From Epithemia pelagica (Eukaryota; Protista; Bacillariophyta), in assembly GCA_946965045.2 (NCBI GenBank), contig OX337235.1:2294001-2358000 (forward strand): 64,000 bases of DNA, written 5' to 3'. Made by a program: the position numbers and the translations under genes. The notes beneath the pieces are model-generated. The model was given only the letters and a program-made list of their open reading frames with translations, was not told the DNA's origin and searched no databases. Positions 24,789-47,576 of the stretch are shown here, piece after piece; positions within the stretch are counted from its first letter, which is position 1; each line of letters begins with the position of its first letter.

Positions 24789-26357
24789 TTAGGTGTGGTT
24801 GGCAGATTGCAAGATGACAGGTCTCCAAGTATTGAGCCAGGAACGGAGAGCAACAGAAGTCGTATCGATGGAGAAGTGAGTATCAAGGGAATCGTATAAA
24901 AGTGATTGATCACGGGGTAGAACGGTGTGGCGGATCGAATATAAGGCAGCAACTTCGCGTTGGGCCTGTGCATAGGCTGCGGTTTCACGGGAAGGAGATG
25001 TAGAGCCATGGAGAGCTTCATTCCTGGTTTTCCATAGTTGATACATATGTACCCACATGAGCTTGATGGTACCAGTAACAAATCGTTGTCCAGAAATTGC
25101 TGATTCGGTAGTAGTTGTGGCGTAGGTGTCTTGTAGTGCGGACCATAGGAGTGCAAAACGGCCGAGAATTAGTTGATTTAGGCCAATGTTGAGTTGAGTG
25201 CGTTGAAGGGCGAAGTAAGGAGATGTTGTGGGTAGGGGAGATGGCTGAGTGGAAGAGAACCAGGAGTGGAGATACTCGGTGAGGAGAGTGCAGAGGGACG
25301 GGTGAACGTGATGATCGTGCCAAAATTCTCGAAGATCGTCAAGTAATGAGCCAAGCCAAGACCTGTTGGGACATCGAAGAAAATGGTCATGGTCTTCGTG
25401 TGTAGGTTGTGGACACGAGGGGCATTCGTCGCTGTAGTAGGTGGCATAACGTGCTTTCAGATGACCCAGGGGAAGCCATTGGTGAAGAAATTTAACCACA
25501 AAATGACGCCTGGAAAAATTAGAGCGAACTGCAATACCGTGTGACTCCCAATCGATGGAATTGAACATATCAGAACTCCAATTGTGCTTGTTGAGTAGGT
25601 AATTGCGCAAGGTTGGTGCTGAGGCTAACGTACGGAGAATGGATCGGTAATTTGAATTTATCGTGCCATAGGGACCATGAAGAATAGCAGTTGCTCCCCC
25701 AATAAGAGGAGCTATCCGCGAGGAGATTGAAGGTGGATAAACGTACGACGATGCTAAATTGTCGGCTTCAACATTCAATTGGGCTGGTAGGGACAGAGTG
25801 GAGGGAGCGGCATTATTGTCTTGATGGCCTTTCACGTGACGAAAAGACGGGACTTGTGGGAATTGTCTTACTGTAGAAGAAATAGACTGTTGGATGTCCC
25901 AGTCTGGGTTCATTGTTGAGTACGTGAAGTCATAGGACCACTCGAGACGTTTGTTGATAGTTTGAACCAGACTCTTGGAGTCTGTGTACACTGTGACCGA
26001 ATCTGGTAAAGATTGGGAGTAAAATTCAAACAAGCGAAATAAGAATCAAAGTATGCTGAGGCAGCCATAACTTTCGGACCGAAAAGATGAAGTCCTATAG
26101 CCAGGAGCAGGACCATTTAGACAAAAGAGACGAAGACCTTGAAGTGTACATCCAACACAGCCGAATGTGCCCCGGAATTGGGCCGCAGAGCCGTCGCTAC
26201 ACAGGAGAAGTTGCAAATTGGTTTGGAACAGTTCGTGCTGTAAGGTATTGAGTGAGCAAATGATGTCAAACCCGCGAAGAAGCTGTGATTCCCAATCCTC
26301 CAATTTCGAAATATGGCTAGACAAGTCGATTGCAGGCGCTTCTGGGGGTGTAATGGT
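24789..26357 (-). pseudogene. LINE ORF 3' part (RNase H and CCHC), with a premature TGA at 26046-26048
   Basis: ORF-track pieces 26046-26372 and 24789-26033 are in the same frame, separated by one TGA (LSIL*FLFRLFEF). Confidence 0.85.
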
Positions 26358-27123
26358 TAGTAGAACTCTCACCGAAAATCATCGGTTAGGTTTGGCACCT
26401 CATCGGTTAGTCGAGTCCCGTGGCTTCAAACATCACCTACATCACCTACATCCACACTACATACCTAGCTTCGCGCTAGCTCAACATATATTTCGGTCGC
26501 ATATACCAAAAAGTGAGAACAGATTGACGAACGTGCTATCAAGAATCAACTTTGGTCTTGATATCCCATCAACGGACGATCATCCGTTGAACATCCGAGC
26601 CTGACCTATGCCGTAAGCATGCGCGCCCAAATTCGTCAAGACGCGCGCAAGAGCTATCCGAGCGTGGCGACCATATATCCGACCCAACGGTCTAAGTACA
26701 CAAGGCACGAATCACGATCACGCGAGACCATATCATCGTTCCCACTATTTCAAGATTGCAAACAAGGACGCGCCAACAAAACTACATATACCAACTTTAG
26801 CCAAGAATCGTTGAGGCTGTATATGATATACAAGCACATATACATGTTATATACCTCACATACATCAACTCCAACCATTCCAGTCCTATCACCGCCAAGA
26901 ACCTATTTCACACGATCAACAACAAGAATGGAAACCTCACACACCAAACCTAGTAGTAAGCTCACAATCATTAACATTACCATATCATCACGTCTTCAGT
27001 GTCCTGACTATCCCTACGATAGAGCCCTTGGGTTTCCTTTGTTCTCTGACCCGTGGAGAACTTTGGTATCAGTTGGTAATCGATTGTGGCTCTTCTAGAG
27101 CGTGTATTGATGAATCTCTACTA
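26358..27123 (+). repeat. 5' LTR of element A (TAGTAGA...TCTACTA)
   Basis: Matches 33353-34118; I found two A/G differences. Confidence 0.95.
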
Positions 27124-27138
27124 GATTAACAGTCTCAC
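27124..27138 (+). promoter_or_regulatory. Candidate primer-binding site complementary to the tRNA-Asn(GUU) anticodon arm
   Basis: GATTAACAGTCTCAC; reverse complement G-TGAGA-CTGTTAA-TC; no TGG after the LTR. Confidence 0.65.
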
Positions 27139-27516
27139 CGCTTATTTCCCTGCAGTTGCAATTGAAACCTTACTTACCCATCAACACCCGTTACAGATTG
27201 AGCTACCACAACAACAAGAGTTAGAGGACAAAGCTACTCAACCCATCAACAGGGCCAGCCTGGCTAAGGCTAGGGTCACCAACCCTTTCCTATTCCAAGA
27301 CCTCAAGCTGCACCAGGACTCCGTACAACTACCTTCCCAATACTCATCCAACGAGTGAACCACTTTTGTTGAGGACTACTACGAGTACGACGAAGAAGCC
27401 GCCTTCTGTTACTGAATCTCCGGTTCAACTCGATCACCGCAACGAGTCTGGAAGTGACCAAGAATAAGTAACTTTAAGTAGTTTTCACACCAAACCGGAG
27501 ACAAAACCAAGTTCCG

Positions 27517-27620
27517 CACATCCGGGTTACCTTTTGGACATCACAACACACATCCGGGTACTTCATACGTGGCACACACGTGGCACATCCGGGTTCAGAA
27601 GGCACACCACACATCCGGGT
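27517..27620 (+). repeat. Four copies of CACATCCGGGT in the leader of element A
   Basis: Copies start at 27517, 27549, 27584 and 27610. Confidence 0.85.
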
Positions 27621-27698
27621 TACAAAACAAGACTAAAGTTTTCGACTAAGACATCACAGGACACATATCAACATATCTTATCACAAAGTCAAGCAATC

Positions 27699-30600
27699 AT
27701 GGAACCAACTACACCGACCCCACCAGAGTTCAACCCCAATCAAAGTATATCTGATCAAGAAGTCTTTGATCATATTACTCAGGTGTTGTTCAACTTTTCC
27801 AAGGAAAGGGTCGATGTACTCGTGAAATGGATGCACCATCATGCTTTTGATGATATCCTTAGTATCATTGAACATATGGCGATTGACCCTGAGAAGAACA
27901 TGGATAGTATGACAAAATACAAGTCAGGAAAACAAATGCACGACCTACATGTCAATACAAGCCAGCAGATCAAGTTGCTTGCCCATTGGTTCCGACAAAC
28001 AAGTATCGATATTCAGGGTATACCTTCCAAGGCAACCTGGATGAATCTGACCAAGGCAGAATTTGATCTATGGAGGATAAACACTGACTTTCGCTCTGGA
28101 AGCCCTATCAATGACCCAGTATCACCTATGAAATCTCCATCCCATTCGACGTCACCAAAATCGTTTAGTACTACTTCTGCTGCATCACAGTCCCAACTGG
28201 ACCTAACCGCATTCAAGAAGGGAACCAAGCGTGACGCTATGGCATATGAAACATTCAAGGATGAACGATACTACGACACGTTCTGGAGGACTTTCAAGAC
28301 CACAGCAAAAGCCCAAGGTTTATCTAATGTTCTTGACTTCCGATACAAGCCGCCAACGAATGATACGTATGCAACAGAACTTTTCCAAGAGCAACAAATC
28401 TTCCTATACTCCGTCCTTGTGCGCATCATCCAGACTGATCAAGGAAGAGCTTATGTTTGCGAACATGAACATGATGAAGACGCACGAGCAGTGTTACAGA
28501 AGCTTCACACATTGCATACGAAGTCAGACTTAGCAAAACGAGAGGTCTTACGATTAACCAATTACATCTCCAACCTTCACCTCGATGATACATGGCGTGG
28601 ATCATCACGTCAATTCTTGCTTCATTTCCAAGACAAACTACGTTTACTCGATAACCTTGTTGATCTCTCTGATCGCATACCTGATCACACCAGGATGACG
28701 TTTCTTATGCAAGCTGTCGAGAAGGTACCTGACCTTCGCAGAGTTAAAATCTTGGACAACGTCGTCAACACGAAGTCTGGAGCAAAGTCTTTATGTTATC
28801 GGTCGTACTTCTCCATTTTGATGGATGCAGCATATGACCATGATCAAGTCACGCAATCTTCTGCAACTGGTCGTCGTCGTAGTGTCAAGCAACACGAGCA
28901 ACACGAAACACAACATGATATTGAGGGATCCCTTCAGGAAGACGATGCATATCAGATAAACAATACCAATGTCCAAGATGATAACACGGCATCTCCAAAA
29001 GCCAGTCTTCCTCGTGACCTATGGTTTAAACTTCCTGAGGATGCTCGCAAGATGATTGTTGAGTATAACAAGAACGTGCAAGCTTCTACTCCGAGTCCAA
29101 GAAAGGTACAGCAACACTCCCTTGACATTGATCCTGACCCTGGTCAAGATGTTTTCGATGACCTGGACAACCCCACATATTCGCAGGATGATTCCGATCC
29201 AGCCACCCATCTCATCCATCAAGCAATGACGTCAACCGACCTCAATCACCCAGCTTCTGATTTGTCTAATGTTCTATCCAATGCCGCATCCAAGACGAGT
29301 AAGAAAGTTAGTTTCAAACAGAATGAGCACAAGCAGAAGGTCCACATGACTCAATATATGTTCTCTCGAAAGTCGACTTATACTGGGAATCAACTCATTG
29401 ATCGTGGTGCCAATGGTGGTTTAGCCGGAGCTGATATGCGTATCCTTTCCAAGACAGGTCGTAACATCACGATTGTGGGAATCGACAACCATGAACTTAC
29501 TGGTCTCCCCATTGTCACTTGTGCTGCCAAGTTTGAAACTAATGATGGACCAATCGTTGGCATCTTCAACGAATATGCATACTATGGAAAAGGACAGTCT
29601 ATACATGCACCTTGTCAATTGGAACATTATGGGCTATCTGTGGATGAACGTTCTGTCAAGGTGGATGGAAAGCAACGTATCACTACCCTTGATGGACGTG
29701 CTTTACCTCTATGTATCAAGGATGGACTTGCCTTTATCCACTCATTAGGTATCCCTTCTGATGATGACATGGACCGATTGCCGCAAATCATCTTTACTTC
29801 GCCATCTACTTGGGACCCCTCTGTTCTTGACCATACTCATTCAGATCCACAGCATGATGCTTCTACTACATGGTATCAGGTTGTGACCGATGGCAGTATG
29901 GCACGTTATCCATATGACACGTATGGGGAGTACACTGATCATGTTGTCTGCAATCTCAATCTTCTCCTTGACCTTCCTTATCACCACGGACCCGACAACA
30001 CCACATATTTCTCTATCTATGCTGATGCTAATGGTGAAGACCCAACCCTTCAACATGCATCTGTCCATTGTCGTTATGTGGAAGAACATGATTGGAAACA
30101 ATTTTGTCCCTTCTTTGGTTGGCAATCCAAGGAAGTTATTGCCGATACTTTCAAGCATACTACACGACATGCTAATGTGATTTTTGACTGTGACACTCTC
30201 AAGAAACATTTCAAGGCACGCAACCCTATCCTGAATCTACCACGTCGTCATGAACCCGTTGCTACCGATTCGATCTTTTCTGATACACCTGCTGTTGATC
30301 ATGGTGGAAAGGTGGCTCAAATTTTTGTTGGCCGCGATACTCTTGTCACTGATATTTACGGTATCAAGTCTACCAAGCAATTTGTGAACACTCTTCAAGA
30401 CAATATACGCATGCGAGGTGTTATGGAGACACTCATTAGTGATGGGGGTTCATCTCTCATTTCCCATAAGGTTAAGGATATCCTTCGCACCTTGCTCATC
30501 GGGGAGTATCGCTCTGAACCATACCACCAGCATCAGAACAAAGCCGAGAATCGTTATCAGACCGTTAAACGAATGACGAACGCTATCATGAATGCAACTG

Positions 30601-33355
30601 GATGCCCGGCCAATGTTTGGTTACTTTGCCTTGAATATGTCTGTGACTTATTGAATCATTCTTCTTCACATGCACACTCTGGACGTACTCCTATTGAGGC
30701 TCTCACCGGTCACCCTCCCGACATTTCGCACCTCCTGTTCTTTCCCTTCTGGGATGAAGTCTACTATCGTGTTGACCCCTCCGAACCGTCGTCTGGTCCC
30801 TACCCTTCTTCGACCGATGAGAAACTTGGCCATTGGGTTGGTTGTGCTCACAACGTTGGTGATGCTTTTACATGGAAGATTTTGTCTGCTGACAACCATA
30901 TCCTCTACCGTTCCGCTGTTCGCCGTGTCGCTTCCACTACACCCAACCTTCGTGTGGATCGACCTTCAGGGGAGACGTCTCCGAAAGATGACACTGATAA
31001 GCAGGCTGACACTGTCTTCATTCGCAGTAAAAGTGAAGATCCATCCAAACCAATGCCTACAATTGATTACGAAGACATGATAGGACGCACTTTCCTATGC
31101 GACACTGAAGAAAATGGGGAGCGTCATCGAGCACGCGTTGTCAAACGAGTTGTAGATCTTAATGAAGAATCACTCAAGCAAGAAGAACGCATCAAGTACA
31201 TCTACCGCAAGACAAATTCTGACGTTGATGAAATGATCTCTTATAACCAGTTGATGGAGTATATTAAGAGGGACAATCAAACGCAGACCTCGGGAGATAA
31301 TTTGTTCCGTTTCAGGGATGTTATTGCACATCAAGGCCCACTGTCTTCAACCGACCCGGATTATAAGGGGAGTAAGTATAACTTGCTTGTGGATTGGGAA
31401 ACTGGGGAGACAACCTATGAACCACTCTCCCTTATTGCCAACGACAACCCAATCACCGTTGCCATATATGGAAAGAAGCATGGGCTCCTCAACGAACCAG
31501 GATGGAAACACCTGAAACGCTACGTCAAGACGAGTAAACGCCTGATACGTGCTGCAAAACAATCAAGGATCAAACAAGTACGTCAATCAGTCAAGTATAA
31601 GTTTGGATTCCAAGTCCCTCGAGATTACGCCGAGGCTGTCAATCTTGACAAACAAAATGGTACCACAAGGTGGCAAGACGCAACTGAATTGGAACTGTCT
31701 CAGATACAATCATATGAGACATTCAAGGACCATGGGAAGGCCATCTTCACAAATGGCAAGGTATCAAATGCACCTGAGGGATATCAAAAGATTCGAGTGC
31801 ATCTCGTTTTTGATGTGAAACATGATGGTAGGCACAAGGCACGACTTGTTGCAGATGGACACTTGACGAAGGAACCTGTGGAAACGATCTACTCTGGAGT
31901 TGTTTCTATTTGCAACCTACGAATTGCTTTATTCCTTGGATCTCTGAACGATCTAGAAGTATGGGGAGCAGACATTGGGAATGCGTATCTTGAAGCATTG
32001 ACTGGGGAGAAGTTATATATTGTGGCAGGACCCGAGTTCAAGGAGCTAGAAGGTCACATCCTCATCATCTACAAGGCCCTCTATGGTCTCAAATCTTCAG
32101 GCGCACGATGGCATGATGTCCTTTTTGACGTCCTCACCGATATGGGTTTCTCACCAAGCAAGGCAGATCCTGACATTGGGATGAGAAAAGCGCCTGGGGA
32201 GGATTGCTACGAATACATCGCCGTATATGTGGATGACTTAGCCATCATAGCTACTGACCCTGGAAACATTTGCAAAGTCTTCAAGGAAAAGTACAACTTC
32301 AAGCTTAAGGGAGATGGACCTATTGACTATCACCTGGGATGCCGGTACACCAAGGACCCTGACGGAACCCTAGTCTCTGATCCACGCCGATACATTAGCA
32401 AAATGATGGACACCTTTGAACGTACCTTCAAAGAGAAACCCAAGAAGGCTAAAACCCCTCTCATTGCTGGTGATCACCCGGAATTGGACGACACCGAACT
32501 CCTTGATGAAGAAGGTACACAGCACTTCCAGACCTTGATTGGACAGCTTCAGTGGGTGATTACAATTGGTCGCTTTGATGTTTTTACTGCTACGATGACC
32601 CTTTCCAGGTTCCGCGCAGCTCCAAGACAGGGACATTTCAACAGAGCTAAACGCATCTATGGATACCTTTTCAATCTTTCTGATGGTGCAATCAGATTCC
32701 GAATCAGAGAGCCCGATTTCTCAAGCATTCCAAGTCAAGACTTTGATTGGAGTCGTACGGTCTATTCAGATGCCAAGGAATACATCCCTCATGATTGCCC
32801 AGAACCACTTGGACGATATGTGACGACAACGCACTATGTTGATGCTAACCTTATGCACGACATGATCAAAGGAAAGTCTGTAACAGCCATCCTGCATCTC
32901 TTGAATGGGACACCAATTGATTGGTACAGCAAACGACAGAGCACTGTGGAAACGGCAACATATGGATCAGAATTTGTGGCAGCAAGGACAGCAGTCGACC
33001 AAATCACTGAATTACGGCATTCACTTCGTTACACCTTGGAGTACCAATCAGGGATTGCAGTTATCTGTTTGGAGACAATCGATCTGTGGTTGTTAACGCA
33101 ACAATGCCTCATTCTATCTTGTCCAAGAGACATCATCTCCTTTCATATCACCGGGTACGAGAAGCGATAGCAGCGCAATACGTTGCATTCTATTGGAAGG
33201 ATGGGAAGACCAACCCTGCCGACATCCTCAGCAAGCATTGGAAGTTTGCAACTATTTGGCCTCTACTCAAGCCCCTATTGTTTTGGAGAGGAGAAGTTCA
33301 AGATCTCTACGAATCCAGCGATGACAAGGCTGAACCAACGAGCTGTGGGGAGTAG
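27699..33355 (+). pseudogene. Gag-Pol polyprotein of element A, frameshifted in RNase H
   Basis: Single ORF from MEPTT; an extra AC at 33033-33034 shifts the frame; the corrected frame reads RYLGVPIRDCSYLFGDN...NPADILSKHW and stops at TAG 33353-33355. Confidence 0.88.
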
Positions 33356-34118
33356 TAGAACTCTCACCGAAAATCATCGGTTAGGTTTGGCACCTCATCG
33401 GTTAGTCGAGTCCCGTGGCTTCAAACATCACCTACATCACCTACATCCACACTACATACCTAGCTTCGCGCTAGCTCAACATATATTTCGGTCGCATATA
33501 CCAAAAAGTGAGAACAGATTGACGAACGTGCTATCAAGAATCAACTTTGGTCTTGATATCCCATCAACGGACGATCATCCGTTGAACATCCGAGCCTGAC
33601 CTATGCCGTAAGCATGCGCGCCCAAATTCGTCAAGACGCGCGCAAGAGCTATCCGAGCGTGGCGACCATATATCCGACCCAACGGTCTAAGTACACAAGG
33701 CACGAATCACGATCACGCGAGACCATATCATCGTTCCCACTATTTCAAGATTGCAAACAAGGACGCGCCAACAAAACTACATATACCAACTTTAGCCAAG
33801 AATCGTTGAGGCTGTATATGATATACAAGCACATATACATGTTATATACCTCACATACATCAACTCCAACCATTCCAGTCCTGTCACCGCCAAGAACCTA
33901 TTTCACACGATCGACAACAAGAATGGAAACCTCACACACCAAACCTAGTAGTAAGCTCACAATCATTAACATTACCATATCATCACGTCTTCAGTGTCCT
34001 GACTATCCCTACGATAGAGCCCTTGGGTTTCCTTTGTTCTCTGACCCGTGGAGAACTTTGGTATCAGTTGGTAATCGATTGTGGCTCTTCTAGAGCGTGT
34101 ATTGATGAATCTCTACTA
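33353..34118 (+). repeat. 3' LTR of element A
   Basis: Preceded by a short purine tract (TGTGGGGAG) and followed by TSD ATGGT. Confidence 0.95.
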
Positions 34119-37068
34119 ATGGTTGCTGGTGACACTGGGAGAAGAGTACGTCGCCCATTCTGATGCACGCTTTGAGCAGTAAGACAGGTCGAAGGAAGCA
34201 TGTTGACGAGCGATGCGGTGGTGACAAAGTAAGGACGTTGGTATACGAAACGCTCAAACTGAGCATCAATCTGGACATAGAGGGAGTAGTTTGTTGGATC
34301 CAGGTATTCATTCCACTGGCGGTAAGTATCAAGACCTGTGACCAGCCATGCTCTAAGCGGTCGGTGTAGACGCTTCAAAGATCCCGAAACAGTGAAGCTC
34401 AGCAAAAGTCTTTTCCATATCGTCCACGCTTTGCGGCTCGGATTAGTTTGATAGGGCAATAAGCCTTTTGCTCTAGAGTGCGTGTCCCGAGAACAGTCGA
34501 TCGCGAACAAGGACAGGTATTTTCCATCGACAGTCACAATGTCACTCATGAGAGTGACGCCCAAGTAGAGTCTGCACGCATTGACCAAACATAACTCAGT
34601 ATCGTTGAAGTCCAGTGAGATGGCGTGGTCCATAAGGAAACTGTCACCTTGACGCTGCAGGGGAGGAACAAAGGTTGTTGCCAACTCGACGGTACACTTG
34701 ATAGACGCCAAAAAGGATCGTACTTGAGGGACCCAGACCATTGGTTCCATATGAGGTAAGCGTATATCCACGTGCTGTAGAATAGGCTTGCTAATCCCTG
34801 CCAAGAACTGTCCCCACGACACTGCAATCAAAGCTAGTTCTGAAGCGACTCCTTGGGATCTCACACATGCAAGGAAAAGATAGATTTGACTGATGCTCTT
34901 TTCGACTGATAGGTCTCGTAATGCAAGGCCGCCATATTCAGTAGGACCATATACAACTGCATTGGGAGTATTGCGATTAAACCCGTATCTTGGTAAGAAG
35001 ACTTGTTTGAAAGGACGTTGTAAGGATTGACAGTTCGAATCAGACAAGGTCGAAGACGGGAAGGGGTACGTCATACTTGATAAATAGATTGAATGGTAAT
35101 ACGCCCAAGAATCAGTGGGGGTGAATGGACTGTTGGCCATTGTCCGAATATGAGCTTTGTTTTTCTTATCTAGCGCTACGTAGAGTTCGGAATCCGTGCA
35201 TTTGGGTGACTTTTGAACACCAAGAGTTTTGTGGCATGCGTAGGAGGAGAGTTGTCTAAGTTTCTGAGGTTGGTCCGTTCCGTGCAGGTGAATCGTAACA
35301 TCAGGTCCGCTCTGGCCATGTTGTAAATTGGGTAGACCATCAATACTGAACGTATAATGCATAAAATGATATGTGCATTTCTCAAGGTTGAGGGCACCTC
35401 CAGAGAGACTAAGCGTATCGTTCCAATGTTGAGCATCATGTGTAGCCTTGGAAATATAGGTATCCAATGGAGCTTGAGTAGGTAGAGCAAAATCATTTGT
35501 GCTTCCACTCGTATCGTCGACAAACCCTATCATGTAGAGTTGAGTCTTGAATTTTCTGCAAGGAGATTCGAATGTCGCCCCGTACGCCTTTTCCTCGTAG
35601 ACATCAAAAAGCACACAGCTGATCACACACCAGATGGCTGGTGAGTTTCCTGCTCCTTGGCCCGAGCCGTAGATTGGAAAAATCTGACAATGCTTGTAAA
35701 ACCTTTCGGAAACGCCCAATTTTGTTTTCAGGTAATATTTTGCTTCGGCCAAATTCCGAGCGTTGATGAAGGTGATAGAACGGTGTTGTCCAAATGCTCG
35801 AGATGCGAGGCTCCCGAAGTTCATCACTATACGGTCGTAACATGCCGTTGCATCGTAGTCCATATGGACTAAAGGTCGTTTGCTTGCCATTGAAATCTCA
35901 TATTGCATTTCTTCAATGAATGTAGGGATCACAGCATCTTTGCCGGGTACTCCACCAAACTGTGACGGATTTAGGACTTGCTGATTGGAGCAGTTCGAAA
36001 TCATCTTTCTCCACTTGGTAGCCAAGACTAGATTGTAGTCTTGCTCGTATAGATGTATGACTCTCCACCGGTGTATTTTCAAGTTCCCCGGTTCTTGTAG
36101 AATCATAACATTTACGATGTGTTTCCAACGTTCGTAGCAATAACCATTTTCCAAGGCAACATTTAACAGTCCCACTTGCCAGTCAATCAAATTAGCTCTC
36201 TTTTCCTCTAGAGCTTCGAATTTGGTTGATTGTGGTTCTAGATCAGTCGGAGCTAACAGGACTTTACTGTGCCTGAGATGAAAGCCGGAGGGGGACATGG
36301 TAGTGGATTCAGGCCATACCTTAATCTTACCGATCCATTCCTCTTTTGTAAGACCTCCTGGCACGCTGTCAAGATTGACGCGTGATTTCATATGATTTAT
36401 CATCGATTGCGAAAGCTCGTCGATTTCTGGTGGTGCCCATGAGCCCTCTAAGATCAGTTCCGAAGTGTGACTGGATGCTCCCCAATCTACCCACTCAGAG
36501 AAAGGTGGAATTGTTGGGTAAGTGTTCTGCGCCTGTCCAAAATGTCGTTGATTGCGTTGAAGAAGCTTTGTCTCGATCTCTGAAGGAGTATCGATAGTTA
36601 TCCATTCAGTACACGCGGCGTAGTCTTGGTCGTTGTCTTCAGCTGGTACATCAAGGCGAGTGATACCATTTTTCGTGGTTCCGCGGCATTTTCTGAGTTT
36701 GTCGTACATTGCCTTGGTCCGTTCCGCTGCCATCCTGTGTTTGATTGCTTTGGAAGTTTTAGTATCGCCTGATTTCTTTGCCTCTTCAAGAGCTAGTTTT
36801 AGTTCATTTTGTCTCCGAAAGACGGCTGTTTTGGTGATTTCAGTTATGCGTCGTTGGACAGCTCGTAATTGGGTTTGACAATCTTGAAGAGTATCAGGAA
36901 TCAGAAAGGAGTGGCCATGGCGTGTTGTATGCATAAGTCCTGCGTCGAAATTGCGGTTCAACCTAATAGAAGAGATCACTTTTAAGAGAGTGTTCTTTTG
37001 GACTCGGAGGTCAGCAAGTTCGCGCGAAAAGGGGATTGATCTTGGTTTCTTGGTGCAACGTTTATCAG
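34119..37068 (-). pseudogene. LINE ORF 5' part (reverse transcriptase), truncated upstream with no endonuclease domain
   Basis: The frame is open from the TSD junction (KRCTKKPRSIPFSREL...) to the Copia junction; removing the Copia joins PVSPAT to ITPPEAPAID in frame. Confidence 0.88.
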
Positions 37069-37084
37069 ATCGTTATCCATAAAA
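37069..37084 (+). repeat. LINE target-site duplication, right copy
   Basis: Identical to 24657-24672. Confidence 0.85.
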
Positions 37085-39442: not shown

Positions 39443-39827
39443 GAAACAAAGTCTTTATCATGGACCCAAAGATTGTGTTTGCATTCAAAGACGCAGCGAT
39501 AGTGAATGGTGATTGGTGATGGCCAGAATAATGGGGACCGATCCTCACACATAAAAAGGGGGGTGCTGTCTTTTTGAAGGGTGTATTGCATGGTTGGCAG
39601 GCGCACAAGACACGCCAGTCGGCAAATTTATAGCGACAAAGAGGCAACCACATTTTCATTTTCAACCCTCGTGCCTGTCGCCAATGGTGAACGAACCGCA
39701 AGAGCGATCATAGAGACCGTGTTATCCTAACAGCATTGCCAGTATTCAGACGCAACGATAAACATCAACCTACTACCGTTGGTTGCAAAGATGAAGCTGA
39801 GACGTCAACAAGATCGAGAAAGCCGTT

Positions 39828-40300
39828 TGTTCAAAAGATCTACGTAATCGTCCGGGAATGGACCCGGGACTCCCATTCGGAAGTAGGAGATCGGCCGAAG
39901 AAAAGATGAGCATCATTCATCTTGAGAATTTGTCCCTCATAGGACAAGAACGACGGGCATCCAAACAAGATGCTCACGAACGATACAACAAAGACAACGC
40001 GTCATCGTCATGAGCGTTTAGAAATGACAAACCGGCACAATCCAACTGATACAGGCCAAAAGAATAACTGGCATTGCCTAAAAGGAACAACGGCCAAGAA
40101 CGGGCAGGAGACACCCATTTAGGAAAACAAGATCGATGGACGATTGAGCTATCGCCCAACCATCGACTCAACGCATCAAAAGGAAAGACCTCAACGCCTT
40201 AGGCTACAACACGCTAGATTAACCAAATAAACTCACAACTTAACTTCGTTTACACGGGTTGAGCTCTTTCTCTTTTACCTACGGTAGGGAGAAAACAACA
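39828..40300 (+). repeat. 5' LTR of element B
   Basis: TGTT...AACA, matches 45688-46160. Confidence 0.96.
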
Positions 40301-40315
40301 CGCTTCCTCTGCGCT
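40301..40315 (+). promoter_or_regulatory. Candidate primer-binding site complementary to the initiator tRNA-Met D-arm
   Basis: CGCTTCCTCTGCGCT; reverse complement AGCGCAGAGGAAGCG, compared with eukaryotic tRNAi RGCGCAGNGGAAGCG. Confidence 0.7.
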
Positions 40316-40350
40316 GTTAACAGCTTACACGTTGTCACTCAAGAATCACC

Positions 40351-41604
40351 ATGGCCGCGAACTTTGCTCTATCTCCAGCCCACGCCAACGCCAATCAAGT
40401 GATCAACTTCACGACGGCAGGAGGCGCCAAGTTTTATAAGCAAGCGACACGCGGATTGTATGATGGTAGTGACCTTTACGACCTCAACGCAGAAGGATTG
40501 AAAACGTTCCTCGATACCTTGCAGGATCGGATCGTGGAACAGAACTGGACGTCTATCTTTTCGATTCCGGAAGCAATCGCTGCTCCAGCCGCAAACCTTC
40601 GTAACTTGACGTCCGAATACGGTCGCGTCTCTCTTCAACAAGTCCGAGCCTTCGTCGACCATTACAATGGGCAGAATCGTCAGACGCAGAACTCATACAT
40701 GGCCTACACATGTATCATGGCTTCACTTACCGAAGACGCAAAGGCACAAGTGAATATTCGACGCGAAGAGTTTACGATCAATGGCCGCGGAGCTGGACCT
40801 CTCCTTCTCAAAGTTATCGTCTCGCTTGCTCACGTGGACACGGAAGCCACGGTTATGGTACTCCGCCAACGTCTGGCCGACTTGCACGTGTACATTATGG
40901 ACATCAACGCGGACATCGCCAAGTTCAATTTCTATGTGGACGAAACCCTTCGAGCCCTCAACGCGCGCGGCGAGCAAACTCTGGACCTCCTTCCCAACCT
41001 TTTCAAGGCGTACGAAAATGTGAACGACGATAACTTTCTGGAGTTTATCCGTCGCAAGAAGAACGCATATGAAGAAGGTGACAATCCGGGATTGACCCCG
41101 CGCCAACTTATGACATTGGCACGCACCAAGTATCAGACCTTGATCGAGCAAAAGAAATGGCAGACGCTATCGGCACGTGACCAGAAACTGATCGCTCTCG
41201 AAGCATCCGTGAACAAACTCAAGGACTCGAAACGTAAGGCAGTGCAGACGGACCAAAAGAAACAGTCAGCAAAAGTGAAGACGGACAAGACTACGGACAC
41301 CGACAAGGGATGGCTTACGATTGGTCCCAAGAGCGGGCAACCGGAGGTTAAAGAAGTTAACGGCAAGACTTGGTATTGGTGCAAGTGGCACCAGAAGTGG
41401 TCAACTAACAAGAATCACACGTCTGCGACATGCAACGGACGTGGTCTTACCGGAGACAAGAAACGCGCTTATGACGAAGCTCACGGGACTGGTGACGGTG
41501 GAAGTCAAGCTGATCCATCTACCCCAGGACTCCGCCTAGCAAGTGCCTTAGCTAACCTGTCTCCAGACGACGAAGAAGATGACGATGACAGCAACGACGA
41601 GTGA
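40351..41604 (+). CDS. gag: Gag of element B
   Basis: 417 aa; atypical knuckle C-x2-H-x8-H-x4-C (CKWHQKWSTNKNHTSATC); acidic tail. Confidence 0.9.
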   Translation: MAANFALSPAHANANQVINFTTAGGAKFYKQATRGLYDGSDLYDLNAEGLKTFLDTLQDRIVEQNWTSIFSIPEAIAAPAANLRNLTSEYGRVSLQQVRAFVDHYNGQNRQTQNSYMAYTCIMASLTEDAKAQVNIRREEFTINGRGAGPLLLKVIVSLAHVDTEATVMVLRQRLADLHVYIMDINADIAKFNFYVDETLRALNARGEQTLDLLPNLFKAYENVNDDNFLEFIRRKKNAYEEGDNPGLTPRQLMTLARTKYQTLIEQKKWQTLSARDQKLIALEASVNKLKDSKRKAVQTDQKKQSAKVKTDKTTDTDKGWLTIGPKSGQPEVKEVNGKTWYWCKWHQKWSTNKNHTSATCNGRGLTGDKKRAYDEAHGTGDGGSQADPSTPGLRLASALANLSPDDEEDDDDSNDE

Positions 41605-41631
41605 CAACCAAACCCGGGGTGGCTCCCCGGG
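41602..41631 (+). other. Candidate stop-codon readthrough signal: UGA-CAA-CCA plus a 7-bp hairpin
   Basis: TGA CAA CCA AA CCCGGGG TGGCT CCCCGGG; the frame continues without a stop into pol. Confidence 0.8.
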
Positions 41632-44600
41632 CTGCTTCAAGACATCAAGCAGCTCATATACACAGTATTAGTGACGATCGTGTTATCAGGTTATACTATA
41701 CTGTGTTTCGAGCTATGGTCCCCTAGACGAACTACCATCGACTACTGGCTAAAGACCGCAAGCAACGCATGCGACCAGATGGCGACTACTATGGCGACCG
41801 CAATCAAGACGAAGAAGAAAAGACGACTCGACCATGGTAAACTAAGACGACGGAGGAAGATGACCGGACTCCTAAGAGCATTATGCATGGCGACGATTCT
41901 TACTTCAACAACTGGATTCGTATCCAACAGAGCGGCCCATGACGTCGGATTCGATACCGACAGCCGCAAAGTACTCATCGACAACTGTGCCACTGCGTCC
42001 ATCACCAACGACATCAACGACTGTTGCACGAAACCAGTCAAGATTAAGCGACGAGTGAAAGGAGTGGCCGGGACGTTCCACCCAGACATTTACGAGACGA
42101 CAATACGATGGGATATCGAGGACGACGATGGGAAAATACATACAATCACGCTCCCCCGATCATTCTACATCCCATCAACGCCGACGCGACTCTTGTCTCC
42201 ACAACACTGGGCTCAAACCGCAAAAGACAACAAACCGGTACCGAGAGGGACTCGATGCACAACGTATGGTAACAGTATCGAACTCGTGTGGGGACAAGGA
42301 CACTTCAAACGAACAGTGCCGCTCAACAAGAAGGGATCAAACGTTGGAGAATTCACAACGGCCCCAGGCTTTACACGATACGAGACGTTCTGCAAGAAAG
42401 CGGGCACAACGATCGAACAAGAAGATAACAAACCACTGTTAGCTCACAACGCGAATCTCATCGAAGACGACGACGAGTCCATCATGGAACGATCTCCAGC
42501 AACGGTCGGAGAAGACGAATCGACAGACGACGAGAGTATTTTCCAAAACGACAATCTCGACGACGAGGAAAATGAGAAGTACTTTCCGAGTAGAGACGTA
42601 CCGATGACTACAGAATTTCTCATCGGTCCGCATGAAACGGTACACGTGATCCCCAACGAAGAAGAACGACTACCCGAGAGTCCAACGCTAGAGTTATTGA
42701 GGACTCACCACCGTATGGGACACCTCTCTATGGCTAAGATCCAATCAATGGCACGCCAGGATATACTCCCAAAACGACTGGCTAATTGCAAAATACCTGT
42801 TTGTACAGCATGCATGTACGGAAAGGCGACCAGACGCCCATGGAGAATCAAGGGTCATCGGGGTACATTGGACGTCATGACGTCACCAGGACAATGCGTA
42901 TCCGTGGATCAAATGATATCCAAGACTCCAGGGTATATAGCCCACTTACGAGGGACTCCAACACGGGACCGATATAAGGTGGCTACCATCTTTGTGGATC
43001 ACTATTCAGGTATAGGTTACGTTCACTTGCAGAGAACTACATCGGCAAAAGACACTATAGAAGCTAAAGATCGATTCGAAGCATGGGCCGATACGCATGG
43101 AGTTGCAATTCGTCATTACCATGCCGATAACGGTATCTTCGCTGACAACAAGTTCCGAGAAGCCATCCAAGCAAAAGGCCAACGCCTTACCTTCAGCGGG
43201 GTCAACGCACACTTCCAGAGCGGTATGGCCGAACGCCGCATTCGGGACCTACAAGAATCAGCACGAACCATGCTAATTCATGCACAGAGACGCTGGCCGT
43301 CCACCATAACGACGAACCTATGGCCCTACGCCATAAGATACGCCAACGACATGTTCAACGAAGCACCTATGAAGAAACAGAAAGACAAAACTCCAATGGA
43401 GTTATTCACTGGTTCAACAGTTCGGTTCAATACAAGACTAGCCCATACGTTCGGGTGTCCCGCTTACGTGCTTGACAACGATCTCCAGAGTGGAACACCT
43501 ATCCCGAAATGGTCAGAACGCGCTCGGGTTGGCATTTTCTTGGGATACTCTCCGCAACATTCTAGAACCATTGGGCTTATTCTATCACTATCATCCGGAT
43601 TGACGTCACCTCAGTTCCATGTGCAGTACGACGACGCTTTCGAAACACTAAGGGCGAGTTTCGGAGAAACCCCGCCAGTATCACAATGGCAGTACAAAGC
43701 AGGATTTACGAAAAGAGCCCCACGAATGAGGGAGACAGCAAGTGCACCTCAACTCGGAAGCACAGCGACGTCACCAAGGAGAACAAGAATCGCAAACGAC
43801 GTGCCGCATGACAACGATGTATCACATAATGAAGAACCGTCCTCGGACACTATGCATCCTACCTTAGATGAGGGAGAAACGCTACCCCAACATGAGGGAG
43901 CTAGGCGGTCGCAACGTACAACCCGTCGGACTCAGAGGTATCAGGACTATTTGACATCGCTACAAGACGAAAACGACGCCATTGCAGAATTAGCTATCAC
44001 TGCTAGACCAGCGATTACGGTCAAGACAGCCCAAGCAAACAGTAACCCAGATGTAATGTACTGGCATGAAGCTATGAAACAGAAAGATCGAGAAGAGTTC
44101 ATCAAAGCCGCTCAGAAAGAAGTACAAGATCATAGCGACAATGGACTATGGGAAGTTGTCAAAAGGAAGGACATTCCGAAAGGAGCATTGATTTCACGCG
44201 GAGTATGGAGCTGTGTCCGAAAACGAAGACTCAAAACAAGAGAAGTCTATAAATGGAAATCAAGACTAGCTTACGACAGGTCTATGCAAGAAAAGGGAGT
44301 CAACTACTGGGAAACATATGCCCCAGTTATTCAATGGCCGGTCGTACGTTTTGTCTTAACTATGGCACTTACTCAAGGATGGCATATCAAGCAAGTTGAT
44401 TATGTCCTGGCGTATACACAAGCAGTGGCGGAGACCGACATGTATATGGAGGCGCCGAGGAGCTTTACATTCGACACCAAAGGCAATCAACGAGCCGAGG
44501 ATTACGTGCTCAAAATCAAGCAAAATTATTACGGCCAGAAACAAGGAGCCCGAGTATGGAACCAACACTTGGTCAAGCGGCTGAAAGACGTGGGTTTCCA

Positions 44601-45660
44601 ACAGAGTGCATATGATGAATGCCTCTTTTACCACGGAAAGTGCGTGTACATTTTGTACACTGATGACTCTCTCTTGATGGGCCCAGACCAAGACGAGCTA
44701 AACAGGTTGATTGTCACAATGGAAGAAAGTGGATTGAAGATGACATACGAGGACGGAGTAAATGACTTTCTCGGAGTCAACGTCGAAAAGAAAGACGATG
44801 GGACCATCCATTTGACCCAACCACATTTGATCGACTCGATCCTCCACGACCTTCACTTGACCGACGAAACAACCAAGACAAAAGACACACCGGCACCCAC
44901 AACGGTACGACTAAGACAAGATCAGGACGGGAAGCCTTTTGACGGGCACTTCCATTATCGAGCCGCAATAGGAAAACTGAATTTTCTGGAAAAGAGCACT
45001 CGGCCAGATATCAGTTTCGCCGTTCACCAATGTGCAAGATTTTGTGAGAGTCCACGAGCAATACATGGCAGAGCAGTAAAACACATTGCACGTTACCTGG
45101 CTGCCACAAAGAAGAAGGGGATCATCCTCAACCCAGACGAGACACAGTCATTCCAAGTCTTCGCAGACGCCGACTTCGCAGGCAATTTCAATAGGCTGGA
45201 CCACCCGAATCGGGACATGGCACGATCAAGAACAGGGTTTGCAGTCTTCTATGCAGGTTGTCCTATCCTGTGGCAATCCAAATTGCAGTCAGAGATCGCA
45301 TTATCAACAACCGAAGCCGAGATTATAAGCCTCTCACATGCATTACGTACCGTGATCCCATTGATGTCCATCACTCGAGAGATGAAGGAATTGGGTTTCC
45401 CAGTACTATCCACAACGCCACAAGTCCACTGCAAGGCATTCGAAGATAACAGTGGCGCTATGGAATTAGCAACTGTACACAAGTATCGCCCTCGAACACG
45501 ATATCTCTGCACCAAGTTGTTCCACTTCAAATCTTTTGTGGAACGAAAGGAAATCGAGATCCTCCCATGCGCGACAGACGACCAGACGGCAGATATCTTC
45601 ACAAAATCTCTTAGCACAACGCCCTTCGAGAAACACCGCAAGAAACTTCAAGGATGGTAG
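41605..45660 (+). CDS. pol: Pol of element B, in frame with gag
   Basis: 41671-40351 = 1320, a multiple of 3; no stop between 41605 and 45657; all catalytic motifs present. Confidence 0.92.
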   Translation, partial: QPNPGWLPGLLQDIKQLIYTVLVTIVLSGYTILCFELWSPRRTTIDYWLKTASNACDQMATTMATAIKTKKKRRLDHGKLRRRRKMTGLLRALCMATILTSTTGFVSNRAAHDVGFDTDSRKVLIDNCATASITNDINDCCTKPVKIKRRVKGVAGTFHPDIYETTIRWDIEDDDGKIHTITLPRSFYIPSTPTRLLSPQHWAQTAKDNKPVPRGTRCTTYGNSIELVWGQGHFKRTVPLNKKGSNVGEFTTAPGFTRYETFCKKAGTTIEQEDNKPLLAHNANLIEDDDESIMERSPATVGEDESTDDESIFQNDNLDDEENEKYFPSRDVPMTTEFLIGPHETVHVIPNEEERLPESPTLELLRTHHRMGHLSMAKIQSMARQDILPKRLANCKIPVCTACMYGKATRRPWRIKGHRGTLDVMTSPGQCVSVDQMISKTPGYIAHLRGTPTRDRYKVATIFVDHYSGIGYVHLQRTTSAKDTIEAKDRFEAWADTHGVAIRHYHADNGIFADNKFREAIQAKGQRLTFSGVNAHFQSGMAERRIRDLQESARTMLIHAQRRWPSTITTNLWPYAIRYANDMFNEAPMKKQKDKTPMELFTGSTVRFNTRLAHTFGCPAYVLDNDLQSGTPIPKWSERARVGIFLGYSPQHSRTIGLILSLSSGLTSPQFHVQYDDAFETLRASFGETPPVSQWQYKAGFTKRAPRMRETASAPQLGSTATSPRRTRIANDVPHDNDVSHNEEPSSDTMHPTLDEGETLPQHEGARRSQRTTRRTQRYQDYLTSLQDENDAIAELAITARPAITVKTAQANSNPDVMYWHEAMKQKDREEFIKAAQKEVQDHSDNGLWEVVKRKDIPKGALISRGVWSCVRKRRLKTREVYKWKSRLAYDRSMQEKGVNYWETYAPVIQWPVVRFVLTMALTQGWHIKQVDYVLAYTQAVAETDMYMEAPRSFTFDTKGNQRAEDYVLKIKQNYYGQKQGARVWNQHLVKRLKDVGFQQSAYDECLFYHGKCVYILYTDDSLLMGPDQDELNRLIVTMEESGLKMTYEDGVNDFLGVNVEKKDDGTIHLTQPHLIDSILHDLHLTDETTKTKDTPAPTTVRLRQDQDGKPFDGHFHYRAAIGKLNFLEKSTRPDISFAVHQCARFCESPRAIHGRAVKHIARYLAATKKKGIILNPDETQSFQVFADADFAGNFNRLDHPNRDMARSRTGFAVFYAGCPILWQSKLQSEIALSTTEAEIISLSHALRTVIPLMSITREMKELGFPVLSTTPQVHCKAFEDNSGAMELATVHKYRPRTRYLCTKLFHFKSFVERKEIEILPCATDDQTADIFTKSLSTTPFEKHRKKLQGW

Positions 45661-45687
45661 CATCATCTTTCCCCGTCCGTGAGGGAG

Positions 45688-46160
45688 TGTTCAAAAGATC
45701 TACGTAATCGTCCGGGAATGGACCCGGGACTCCCATTCGGAAGTAGGAGATCGGCCGAAGAAAAGATGAGCATCATTCATCTTGAGAATTTGTCCCTCAT
45801 AGGACAAGAACGACGGGCATCCAAACAAGATGCTCACGAACGATACAACAAAGACAACGCGTCATCGTCATGAGCGTTTAGAAATGACAAACCGGCACAA
45901 TCCAACTGATACAGGCCAAAAGAATAACTGGCATTGCCTAAAAGGAACAACGGCCAAGAACGGGCAGGAGACACCCATTTAGGAAAACAAGATCGATGGA
46001 CGATTGAGCTATCGCCCAACCATCGACTCAACGCATCAAAAGGAAAGACCTCAACGCCTTAGGCTACAACACGCTAGATTAACCAAATAAACTCACAACT
46101 TAACTTCGTTTACACGGGTTGAGCTCTTTCTCTTTTACCTACGGTAGGGAGAAAACAACA
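45688..46160 (+). repeat. 3' LTR of element B
   Basis: Preceded by the PPT-like GAGGGAG. Confidence 0.96.
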
Positions 46161-47576
46161 GCCGTTCGATTCATGTTGGCTGGCTTGTTGCTACCGTCAT
46201 GCTTCTTTCGATATGGACCTGCTTGGAGTCAATGCTGATCAGTCCCATTGATCAAACTCTTCTCTTTGACAACCACCAAATTGATAAGCTCCATGAAGGG
46301 ATGGTCATCGATTCTTCCACCAATTCAAGTACTGTGTCATTACCTACAGCTCGAACTCTGGGCGTACAGGTTAGTCACATATGTAGAAATCTATCCAATG
46401 TTCGTCGAACTGGAAGCTTTTTCTACGACCACAATCTCCCTTACTGGTCAAGTCCCGTCTCTGTCGAGCCAAGACTTCATCTAAGCGCGCGAAGGTCGGA
46501 CCCCAATCTCCACAGACGTCTCCAAAGAGCCAATCTTGCCTTATTCCGTCAGCACTATGAGAAACACCGCCATCCTGATGGTGGTATAATCTTTGATATT
46601 GGAGCCAATCGGGGGATATATACATACTACGCAGCAACTCTGGGATGGGAGGTACATGCATTTGAAATTCAAGAACCAGTTTTCAAGCAACTTTCCCATG
46701 CTACACTGTTCAATCCAAAGGCTGTTTCGGATCGGGTTCACTTATATCCTATTGGAATATCAAGGACGATCTCTCGATCTGATCACGCAGCCACCGACGG
46801 TCTCGGATACCTCAATACAGCAAAGCATGCAGAGATAGAACTAGAGATGACACCAAGAGCGTCATCCAACAAAAAATCTATGGAAGAATCCGAAGTCGCA
46901 ATGTTTGAGGATTCTGGGTTGGGGAACGGGCCCACTTTGGTCATGCCTATGGACTGTCTGCTTTGGCATGTACCCGTTGATCTGGATAGAGTGGATTTGG
47001 TCAAGATTGATATTGAGGGTTTCGAAATTGCAGCTTTAAAAGGAGCGAAGCAGACATTATTTCGCAAACCACGTAGTGTCGGAGCTTTGCTGATAGAGGT
47101 TGGACCTATCCGGTGGGACCGTGCTGGAACGTCCCTTTCGGAGGGCATCTCCGAGCTGAGATCTTTGTTTCACATGTTTGCATATTCCCACGTTCTCTTG
47201 AGGAACTTTTCAGGTTGTCCTTACACGCTAGCCGAAAAACTTGTCCCCCGAAACGACAGCAGTCACACAAAATTCCAACTTGTAGCACAAGAGAGAATGT
47301 ATCGACTACAAAAAGACAATTGGCAACCTCTATTAGAGGAGCTGGATCGTACAAAAGCTGATTGCAATTTCTGGTACTCCAACCACCCATACGACGGCCA
47401 GCGAAGAGTACGTTGAAATTGAAAGTAGCAAGATACAAGAACGGTAGTTCGAAGTAGTGGAGACATATTTCATCATCATAGATGAGCGTGTTGAGAGCGG
47501 AATGCAGCGACTACAAAGCTTTCTCATCATACGAGCGTAATTGCGCGGAAGTGACCGAACGATGAGAAATCCCAGT

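What the first reader, a model, noticed from the sequence alone, without database searches (positions are those of the whole stretch)
41590..41680. Programmed UGA readthrough between gag and pol in a diatom Copia element
Seen: the ORF track shows two ORFs, but they share a frame and only one TGA (41602-41604) separates them, so removing it gives a 1769-aa Gag-Pol. The stop is followed by CAA CCA, and a perfect 7-bp GC stem (CCCGGGG-TGGCT-CCCCGGG, 41613-41631) starts after an 8-nt spacer. Known: CAR-YYA is the TMV-type leaky-stop context, MuLV uses an 8-nt spacer before its stimulatory structure, and most Copia elements have one ORF (Candida Tca2 and Sirevirus env are readthrough exceptions). 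Inference: this element sets its Gag:Pol ratio by stop suppression with two combined signals. I know of no characterised readthrough in diatoms.
Basis: partly seen in the sequence, partly recalled or inferred. Interest (0 to 1): 0.88.

Follow-up and report, generated by a model that had tools for sequence, protein, structure and literature searches.

The report
Leaky stop splits diatom retrotransposon gag-pol
A young, intact copia-type jumping gene has its coat gene and its enzyme gene in one reading frame, split by a single UGA stop that sister copies and distant relatives keep, so the enzymes are likely made by occasional ribosome readthrough of that stop, a strategy known from other retroelements but untested in diatoms.

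Summary
A young Ty1/copia element (39828-46160, identical 473-nt LTRs) has gag (417 aa) and pol (1351 codons) in one frame, split by one TGA. CAACCA follows, then the only all-G/C 7-bp hairpin in the window. The stop is not a private mutation: 10 of 15 listed sister proteins end there and none runs past. Among 66 distinct relatives 63 have TGA and 3 TAG; pol's own stop is TGA in 10 of 46. The protease is in gag's frame in 45 of 46, and 1293 codons before the first in-frame ATG hold 0 stops (about 56 expected). A hairpin follows in 26 of 62 relatives, mostly after a 7-nt spacer, with covarying pairs. CARYYA is not conserved (0 of 66) and no pseudoknot partner was found, so the signal resembles UGA-C plus stem (type II), not TMV plus MuLV. 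Programmed readthrough is the best reading (0.8) but is inferred: no RNA, footprint or peptide data were available, and the similar Tca2 junction failed a reporter test. The scan noted this layout before in other genomes. It is a new member of a known kind.

The parts
39822..39827 (+). target-site duplication, left copy (GCCGTT, 6 nt)
   Evidence: empty-site joint 39820>46160 in runs X1 and X2
39828..40300 (+). 5' LTR, 473 nt, TG...CA, identical to the 3' LTR
40301..40314 (+). primer-binding site, 14 nt, complementary to tRNA-Met(CAT) positions about 10-23 (D-arm) instead of the 3' CCA end
   Evidence: motif in 71 of 82 related loci; its complement lies in tRNA-Met genes in 70 of 119 matching viral-contig loci
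40351..41601 (+). gag, 417 aa, no Pfam family, ends in a helix-like motif and an acidic tail
41602..41604 (+). in-frame UGA, the candidate readthrough codon
   Evidence: TGA in 63 of 66 relatives
41605..41612 (+). 8-nt spacer CAACCAAA (C at +4; fits CARYYA here only)
   Evidence: +4 C in 39 of 66 relatives, CARYYA in 0 of 66
41613..41631 (+). 7-bp G/C hairpin with 5-nt loop, candidate stimulator
   Evidence: covarying 11-bp counterpart in relatives
41631..41653 (+). possible second, stacked hairpin (predicted only)
   Evidence: first fold
41653..41709 (+). hydrophobic, membrane-helix-like stretch in the linker between the stop and the protease, upstream of the first in-frame Met (41779)
   Evidence: Kyte-Doolittle 19-residue mean 2.14; 1.6 or more in 43 of 56 elements, window included
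41605..45660 (+). pol frame: linker, protease (DNCA 41980), integrase (zinc-finger motifs 42706-42813, core from 42904), RT (YTDD 44656), RNase H (45163-45606), ending in TAG
   Evidence: (PF07727, PF13976)
45681..45687 (+). polypurine tract GAGGGAG before the 3' LTR
   Evidence: same tract after pol in many relatives
45688..46160 (+). 3' LTR
46161..46166 (+). target-site duplication, right copy

Best explanation
This intact young copia retrotransposon has gag and pol in one frame split by a conserved UGA, and it likely makes Pol by programmed readthrough: most ribosomes would stop and release Gag, while a minority would insert an amino acid and make a 1769-aa Gag-linker-Pol polyprotein. Shown: the layout; conservation of the stop, of UGA and of the frame; coding-type selection on the stretch just after the stop; and a covarying hairpin at a fixed distance in part of the family. 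Inferred: that ribosomes read through; that UGA-C and the hairpin 7-8 nt downstream (at the mRNA entry channel) set the rate; and that the polyprotein is cut by its own protease. The rate and the inserted residue are unknown (Trp, Cys or Arg by analogy with plant viral UGA, PMC2194720 discussion).
For: Sisters: 10 of 15 listed members of the 90% Gag cluster end at ...SNDE, 5 are shorter and none runs on. A contig spanning 41400-41900 in run X1 differs at only 2 places, neither in the stop or hairpin. Relatives: 76 of 82 loci reach a gag stop (70 TGA, 3 TAG, 3 TAA). After dropping 5 broken and 5 near-duplicate rows: 63 TGA and 3 TAG of 66, against TGA in 10 of 46 pol terminal stops (Fisher p 9e-17, relatedness not corrected). 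Protease motif in frame 0 in 45 of 46, with no stop in between in 44, across 33 different linker lengths from 105 to 570 nt. 0 stops in 1293 codons between the stop and the first in-frame ATG, against about 56 expected from the other two frames. pN/pS of linker codons 13-60 is 0.56 in frame, 0.80 and 1.10 in the other frames, and 0.46 before the first Met (12 and 6 close pairs). A hydrophobic stretch lies in frame 0 in 43 of 56, against 4 and 5 in the other frames, and starts before the first in-frame Met in 18 of the 43. The first ATG after the stop is in the pol frame in only 14 of 46. A perfect stem of 8 bp or more follows in 26 of 62 (15 after exactly 7 nt) against 26 of 577 control windows. 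In 18 selected hairpins 96% of cells pair and 10 of 11 pairs show two-sided changes; 0 of 500 shuffles reach this and slid registers give 28-48%. Context xxA-UGA-C resembles type II sites and Tj1/Tosmo (PMC3159437, PMC10085805, passages).
Against: There is no direct evidence of translation through the stop. The similar-looking Tca2 junction gave only 0.3% readthrough, equal to a control stop, in S. cerevisiae and held a weak internal promoter (PMC2194720). 36 of 62 relatives have no perfect proximal stem of 8 bp or more; only 8 of 30 tested such loci show a long-range duplex better than all their gag controls. The covariation set was chosen for having the hairpin, and related sequences inflate the shuffle test. 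The window's hairpin is shorter (7 bp, 8-nt spacer) than the 11-bp type and cannot be aligned to it base by base. In a sister family two letters of it differ (41619, 41623), which breaks or re-registers the top pair instead of compensating cleanly (loose ends). A Met lies 11-17 codons before the protease motif in 27 of 46 relatives and could be an internal start. The three TAA rows were among those dropped as broken.
Confidence: 0.8

Rival explanations
1. Pol is made without Gag, from an internal promoter or by internal initiation or reinitiation at an AUG in the linker.
For: Tca2 has a weak junction promoter (PMC2194720). A Met sits 11-17 codons before the protease motif in 27 of 46 relatives. 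The long linker leaves room for a leader.
Against: This would not need frame 0 (45 of 46), an open frame before the first AUG (0 stops, about 56 expected), or UGA (63 of 66). The first AUG is out of frame in 32 of 46, and 7 of 46 have no Met within 40 codons of the protease; several of these carry L, F or Y at that place. The hydrophobic stretch starts before any in-frame Met in 18 elements.
Confidence: 0.08
2. A minor splice removes the stop and joins gag to pol.
For: Regulated splicing sets Gag:Pol in Drosophila copia (PMC2194720, background). One related family has fused 1869-1878-aa Gag-Pol proteins that lack the gag tail and stop, beside stop-bearing Gag of the same cluster. Such fusions could be retro-copied spliced RNAs.
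Against: Donor-like motifs are no commoner just before the stop (21 of 66) than in gag controls (16 and 25 of 66). An intron would not stay open and under coding selection. The codons possible at the fusion point of that family do not give GT-AG ends (reasoned from the proteins; its DNA was not obtained), so a deletion is more likely.
Confidence: 0.06
3. The stop is bypassed, but by a route other than near-cognate readthrough tuned by this local signal: selenocysteine insertion, RNA editing, or distant elements, with the hairpin serving another role such as genome dimerisation or packaging.
For: UGA is the selenocysteine codon (established knowledge). The family hairpin loop keeps a self-complementary GC at the nucleotide level in 17 of 18 while the encoded residue varies. 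Tca2 needs something beyond 300 nt of junction (PMC2194720).
Against: The same hairpin follows TAG in L001 and L040, and its 5' arm in the cut-off L019. No Rfam SECIS match was found in the element. The stop lies outside the duplex. The hairpin's distance from the stop is fixed (15 of 26 at 7 nt), which a packaging signal would not need.
Confidence: 0.05
4. The TGA is a private nonsense mutation in a single-ORF element, or the host reads UGA as sense.
For: None found beyond the general prevalence of single-ORF copia elements; another copia element in this window has one ORF.
Against: Sisters and relatives all stop here. The best 150 representatives of a library-wide profile search are all 368-557 aa. 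TGA ends 12 of 26 long ORFs in the window.
Confidence: 0.01

Closest known systems
Tca2 (pCal) of Candida albicans, Ty1/copia (PMC2194720: abstract, background and discussion read)
   Same: Copia element with gag-UGA-pol in one frame, an 8-nt spacer and then a predicted structure; Pol is made from the LTR-driven RNA.
   Different: Tca2 has a purine-rich spacer and a predicted pseudoknot, and its junction failed to give readthrough in yeast. Here there is a simple hairpin with covariation across many families and a 35-190-codon, usually hydrophobic, linker before the protease.
Tj1, Tosmo1-3 and Tcry1 of fission yeasts, Ty3/gypsy (PMC10085805, passages)
   Same: In-frame TGA between gag and pol with a conserved GAA-TGA-CT context; here GAR precedes the stop in most relatives and C follows in 39 of 66. 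The Tj1 stop is reported as essential for transposition.
   Different: Gypsy superfamily; the passages read mention no 3' hairpin. The +5/+6 letters vary more in this family.
Type II readthrough sites: alphavirus, tobra-, peclu- and furovirus UGA-CGG/CUA with a 3' stem (Firth et al. 2011, PMC3159437, passages)
   Same: UGA, C at +4, CGG the commonest next codon (13 of 66), UGG also seen, and a stem of about 11 bp starting 7-9 nt after the stop.
   Different: Those stems mostly enclose loops of about 100-150 nt; here the usual form is a compact 11-bp stem with a 5-nt loop. The window's next codon is CAA.
MuLV gag-UAG-pol (type III) and TMV UAG-CAR-YYA (type I) (PMC3159437, PMC2194720)
   Same: Gag:Pol control by a stop with an 8-nt spacer (MuLV); the CARYYA hexamer in this copy (TMV).
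   Different: The stop here is UGA, the spacer is not purine-rich, no pseudoknot partner was found, and CARYYA is absent from all 66 relatives.
CoDi elements, Ty1/copia of diatoms (Maumus et al. 2009, PMC2806351: passages and sections 6 and 18; supplement not readable)
   Same: PR-IN-RT-RH order, size range and TG...CA LTRs. Pol is 49% identical to a protein clustered with a Phaeodactylum tricornutum protein. [quoted passage not shown]
   Different: The main text does not identify the stop as conserved or propose readthrough (0 occurrences of the word). Additional file 1, which lists ORF1/ORF2, could not be seen and may bear on novelty.

Membership tests
Ty1/copia LTR retrotransposon | paired LTRs with TG...CA ends and a target-site duplication | tested here: met
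   473-nt identical LTRs, 6-nt duplication
Ty1/copia LTR retrotransposon | pol order protease-integrase-RT-RNase H with a copia-type RT | tested here: met
   PF13976 before PF07727, E 1e-32; motif positions (motif names are from my own knowledge)
CoDi (copia of diatoms) | RT groups with CoDi1-7 reference elements | not tested
   No named CoDi reference sequences were returned by any search, so no RT tree with them was built.
CoDi (copia of diatoms) | nearest named relatives come from diatoms | tested here: met
   Named relatives: P. tricornutum (in the cluster of P0148, 49%), Fragilaria crotonensis (45%), Chaetoceros tenuissimus (43%), Cylindrotheca closterium (Gag, 32%). Most hits are unnamed, and the host of this window was not itself placed.
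Type I readthrough (TMV) | UAG followed by a conserved CAR-YYA | tested here: not met
   The hexamer is present in the window but the stop is UGA; 0 of 66 relatives carry it. DNA of the four closest families was not obtained except for fragments.
Type II readthrough (alphavirus/tobravirus) | UGA with C at +4 | tested here: met
   window UGA-C; TGA 63 of 66, +4 C 39 of 66
Type II readthrough (alphavirus/tobravirus) | next codon CGG or CUA | tested here: inconclusive
   window CAA; relatives CGG 13, CTA 2 of 66
Type II readthrough (alphavirus/tobravirus) | conserved stem starting about 7-12 nt 3' of the stop | tested here: met
   met in the window and in 26 of 62 relatives, with covariation in 18 selected rows; no such perfect proximal stem in 36 of 62
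Type III readthrough (MuLV) | UAG-G, purine-rich 8-nt spacer and pseudoknot | tested here: not met
   The stop is UGA; a loop partner was found in 5 of 18, at chance level. Three relatives have UAG-G.
Programmed stop-codon readthrough (any type) | ribosomes shown to decode the stop at a rate above background | not testable with these tools
   needs a reporter, ribosome profiling or peptides

The most novel reading that the evidence does not exclude
A very large lineage of diatom-type copia elements (1853 representatives at 50% identity with E<1e-30) controls Pol by UGA readthrough, in one branch with a compact covarying 11-bp hairpin 7 nt after the stop. The first thing the readthrough makes is a membrane-helix-like linker, so only the rare Gag-Pol molecules would be membrane-anchored while free Gag stays soluble, tying particle assembly or protease activation to a membrane. 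Combined with priming from a roughly 23-nt 5' piece of tRNA-Met, this would be a copia replication scheme not found in the papers searched.
Probability: 0.3. Interest if true: 0.72.

Novelty: new member of a known kind. Interest (0 to 1): 0.5.

Why it matters
It would be a case of programmed stop-codon readthrough in diatoms; none appeared in the searches. It offers what Tca2 lacked: dozens of diverged natural variants that show which parts of the signal are kept (UGA, often C at +4, a stem at 7-8 nt) and which are not (CARYYA). A relative occurs in the transformable model Phaeodactylum tricornutum, so the open question left by Tca2, how a copia gag stop is bypassed, becomes directly testable. 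In practice, annotation pipelines split these elements into two genes or score them as defective, although the stop is part of the intact design.

Tried and rejected
No whole genome is held for this window, so genomic copies were judged from protein clusters and assembled contigs only. No RNA holder was listed; this says nothing on expression. The runs laid are contigs from at most 3 samples and may include the window's own source; contigs drop rare variants. Viral-contig scans with the Gag alignment and with P0398 found no relatives, so the DNA of the fused family could not be read. A search for longer Gag-containing proteins found none (weak by the tool's own note); 1 of the best 120 Pol hits was a fusion, from another family. 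Pseudoknot: rejected. CARYYA as a family signal: rejected. Rfam: one chance-level match, E 0.97. PDB sequence search with Pol: 0 hits. ESM Atlas: Gag resembles unnamed clusters only; the linker-protease piece scored 0.82, a lead at most. The bacterial promoter/terminator scan does not apply to a eukaryote and was ignored. The careful tree did not finish. The quick tree puts all hairpin-labelled rows, the window included, in one weakly supported branch (SH-aLRT 82), so one origin is neither shown nor excluded. Host genes were not in the exact look-up, so the host was not placed directly. Gao et al. 2003 on gag-pol recoding signals is not held, and Maumus Additional file 1 could not be read.
Full report
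Observation. The sequence and the stop-to-stop frames show a 417-aa ORF from Met 40351 ending in TGA at 41602-41604. In the same frame follows an open stretch of 1351 codons to TAG at 45658-45660; fused they would give 1769 aa. CAACCA follows the stop. After 8 nt comes CCCGGGG-TGGCT-CCCCGGG (41613-41631). This is the only all-G/C stem of 7 bp or more with a 3-8-nt loop in the 64-kb window, and the junction holds the most stable 45-nt windows of the element's interior. Shuffle z-scores are moderate, -1.2 to -2.9 by window. CARYYA by itself is common: 17 in the element, and 8 TGA-CARYYA in the window.

The element. Identical 473-nt LTRs (39828-40300, 45688-46160) with TG...CA ends are flanked by GCCGTT on both sides. 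Contigs of runs X1 and X2 join 39820 to 46160, the empty site, so the insertion is recent and polymorphic. Pol carries PF13976 and PF07727, with motifs in the order protease, integrase, RT, RNase H: Ty1/copia. Gag has no Pfam family. The few named relatives are from diatoms: a P. tricornutum protein in the 90% cluster of a Pol 49% identical to this one, Fragilaria, Chaetoceros and Cylindrotheca. The CoDi group was not determined, and the host was not placed directly.

Is the stop private? No. In the window's own Gag cluster 10 of 15 listed members (of 20) end at SNDE, 5 are shorter and none is longer; four sister families also end at the same acidic tail. A contig of run X1 covers 41400-41900 in one piece with two differences, neither at the stop or hairpin; these runs may be the window's source. 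A library-wide profile search found 1853 representatives at E<1e-30, and the best 150 are all 368-557 aa. One of the best 120 Pol hits is a fused Gag-Pol from another family.

Relatives as DNA. I fetched 79 metagenome loci (the best 80 of 243 matches) and 3 genome-contig loci, 31-41% identical in Gag. In 6 of 82 gag runs off the contig; 76 reach a stop: 70 TGA, 3 TAG, 3 TAA. I dropped 5 rows whose first stop falls before the acidic tail or after a frameshift (L028, L051, L058, L061, L075, which include all three TAA; L058's next stop, at the tail, is TGA-C). I also dropped 5 near-duplicates. Of the 66 left, 63 have TGA and 3 TAG. As a control, pol's terminal stop is TAA 25, TAG 11 and TGA 10 of 46, window and one minus-strand row left out. 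C follows the stop in 39 of 66. The next codon is CGG 13, CTC 11, TGG 10; CARYYA is 0 of 66.

Is the stretch after the stop translated from upstream? In 46 relatives where the protease motif was found, it is in gag's frame in 45, with no intervening stop in 44, over 33 distinct distances of 105-570 nt. Between the stop and the first in-frame ATG there are 1293 codons and no stop, against about 56 expected. The first ATG of any frame is in the pol frame in 14 of 46. In 12 close pairs pN/pS is 0.56 for linker codons 13-60 (other frames 0.80 and 1.10; gag 0.20; pol 0.33 in 5 pairs), and 0.46 for the part before the first Met in 6 pairs. A 19-residue hydrophobic stretch lies in the first 80 codons in 43 of 56 elements, window included (other frames 4 and 5; gag windows 3 of 263), and begins before the first in-frame Met in 18 of them. 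These are the signs of a coding region that can only be reached from gag. Against this, a Met lies 11-17 codons before the protease motif in 27 of 46; but 7 of 46 have none within 40 codons, and I read the position as part of a cleavage site (inference).

The hairpin. Without selection, a perfect stem of 8 bp or more starts within 22 nt of the stop in 26 of 62 relatives with enough sequence, 15 of them after exactly 7 nt. Control windows give 26 of 577, 11 of these in the window at +60. Energy z < -2 in 26 of 62, against 1-7 per control offset. For 18 rows chosen for a shared geometry (of 21 first aligned; L001, L004 and L081 left out for different loop lengths), the 11-bp helix pairs in 96% of cells and 10 of 11 pairs change on both sides; no shuffle of 500 reaches this and slid registers give 28-48%. 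Selection and relatedness inflate this test. 36 of 62 have no such perfect proximal stem; 8 of 30 tested such loci have a long-range duplex better than all their gag controls, a hint only. The quick tree places hairpin-labelled rows, the window among them, in one weakly supported branch. The window's 7-bp stem is a positional counterpart, not an alignable copy, and a sister family differs at 41619 and 41623 without a clean compensation. No pseudoknot partner or conserved splice donor was found.

Mechanism. Most ribosomes likely end at the UGA and release Gag. A few likely insert a residue, helped by UGA-C and a stem at the mRNA entry channel, and continue through a hydrophobic linker into PR-IN-RT-RH. 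The layout and selection are shown; decoding, rate and the stem's role are inferred from type II sites (PMC3159437, passages). Caution comes from Tca2, whose similar junction gave no readthrough in yeast although Pol came from the gag-pol RNA (PMC2194720). Odds: readthrough 0.8, separate Pol initiation 0.08, splicing 0.06, other bypass 0.05, accident 0.01.

Known and new. In-frame gag-stop-pol is described for MuLV, Tca2 and the fission-yeast Tj1/Tosmo/Tcry1 elements. Maumus et al. note one or no stop or frameshift between gag and pol in diatom elements without proposing readthrough; their supplement was unreadable and Gao et al. 2003 is not held. Searches for readthrough with diatom, CoDi, stramenopile or Blackbeard/Surcouf (listings only unless cited above) showed no paper on this lineage. 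Passage searches in PMC2774666, PMC13517186, PMC8147415, PMC7017206 and PMC5009743 found no mention. The library lacks most subscription journals, Repbase and GyDB. Earlier AI notes of this scan report the same layout in at least 3 other genomes; they are leads, not support. Verdict: real, family-wide, a new member of a known kind; interest 0.5.

Noticed in passing
window 40301-40314: The primer-binding site is not the usual TGG type. It is near-invariant in 71 of 82 related loci, and its complement is the D-arm (from position 10 or 11) of tRNA-Met(CAT) in 70 of 119 matching viral-contig loci. This suggests priming by a roughly 23-nt 5' tRNA fragment. No relevant paper; earlier scan notes report it.
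   Followed up: yes
window 41653-41709 and relatives: The readthrough product begins with a membrane-helix-like stretch, then often a Y-V-P-K-type motif (30 of 67, window included in n) and a basic region before the protease. A few relatives (L013, L018, L042) lack the hydrophobic stretch.
   Followed up: partly
proteins P0235, P0393-P0403: One related family has both stop-bearing Gag (P0398, P0391) and fused 1869-1878-aa Gag-Pol that lacks the gag tail, the stop and the start of the linker; 9 of 15 cluster members show the fused junction. Probably a spreading deletion derivative; DNA not obtained.
   Followed up: partly
L001:4884, L019:1894, L040:4018: Three relatives have UAG-G instead of UGA; L001 and L040 keep the same hairpin and L019 its 5' arm before the contig ends. 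L040 lies apart from the other two in the quick tree, so the switch may have happened twice.
   Followed up: partly
window 26358-34118: A second young copia element of another lineage (766-nt LTRs, 99.7% identical) with gag and pol in one ORF (27468-33170) and no match to this Gag. The RNase H end motif seems to lie in another frame after the ORF's stop, so a late frameshift is likely.
   Followed up: partly
window 34064-37072 (-) and 24789-26045 (-): A long RT-like ORF without a Pfam hit and an RNase H-bearing ORF flank the second copia element. They may be the two parts of a non-LTR retroelement interrupted by that insertion.
   Followed up: no
window 39822-39827 and 46161-46166: The target-site duplication is 6 nt, where 5 nt is usual for copia (recalled).
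   Followed up: no
L016, L032, L041 after the gag stop: This subfamily lacks the near hairpin, but its spacer-proximal bases pair best with a site about 180-210 nt downstream, like the extended stems of alphaviruses.
   Followed up: partly
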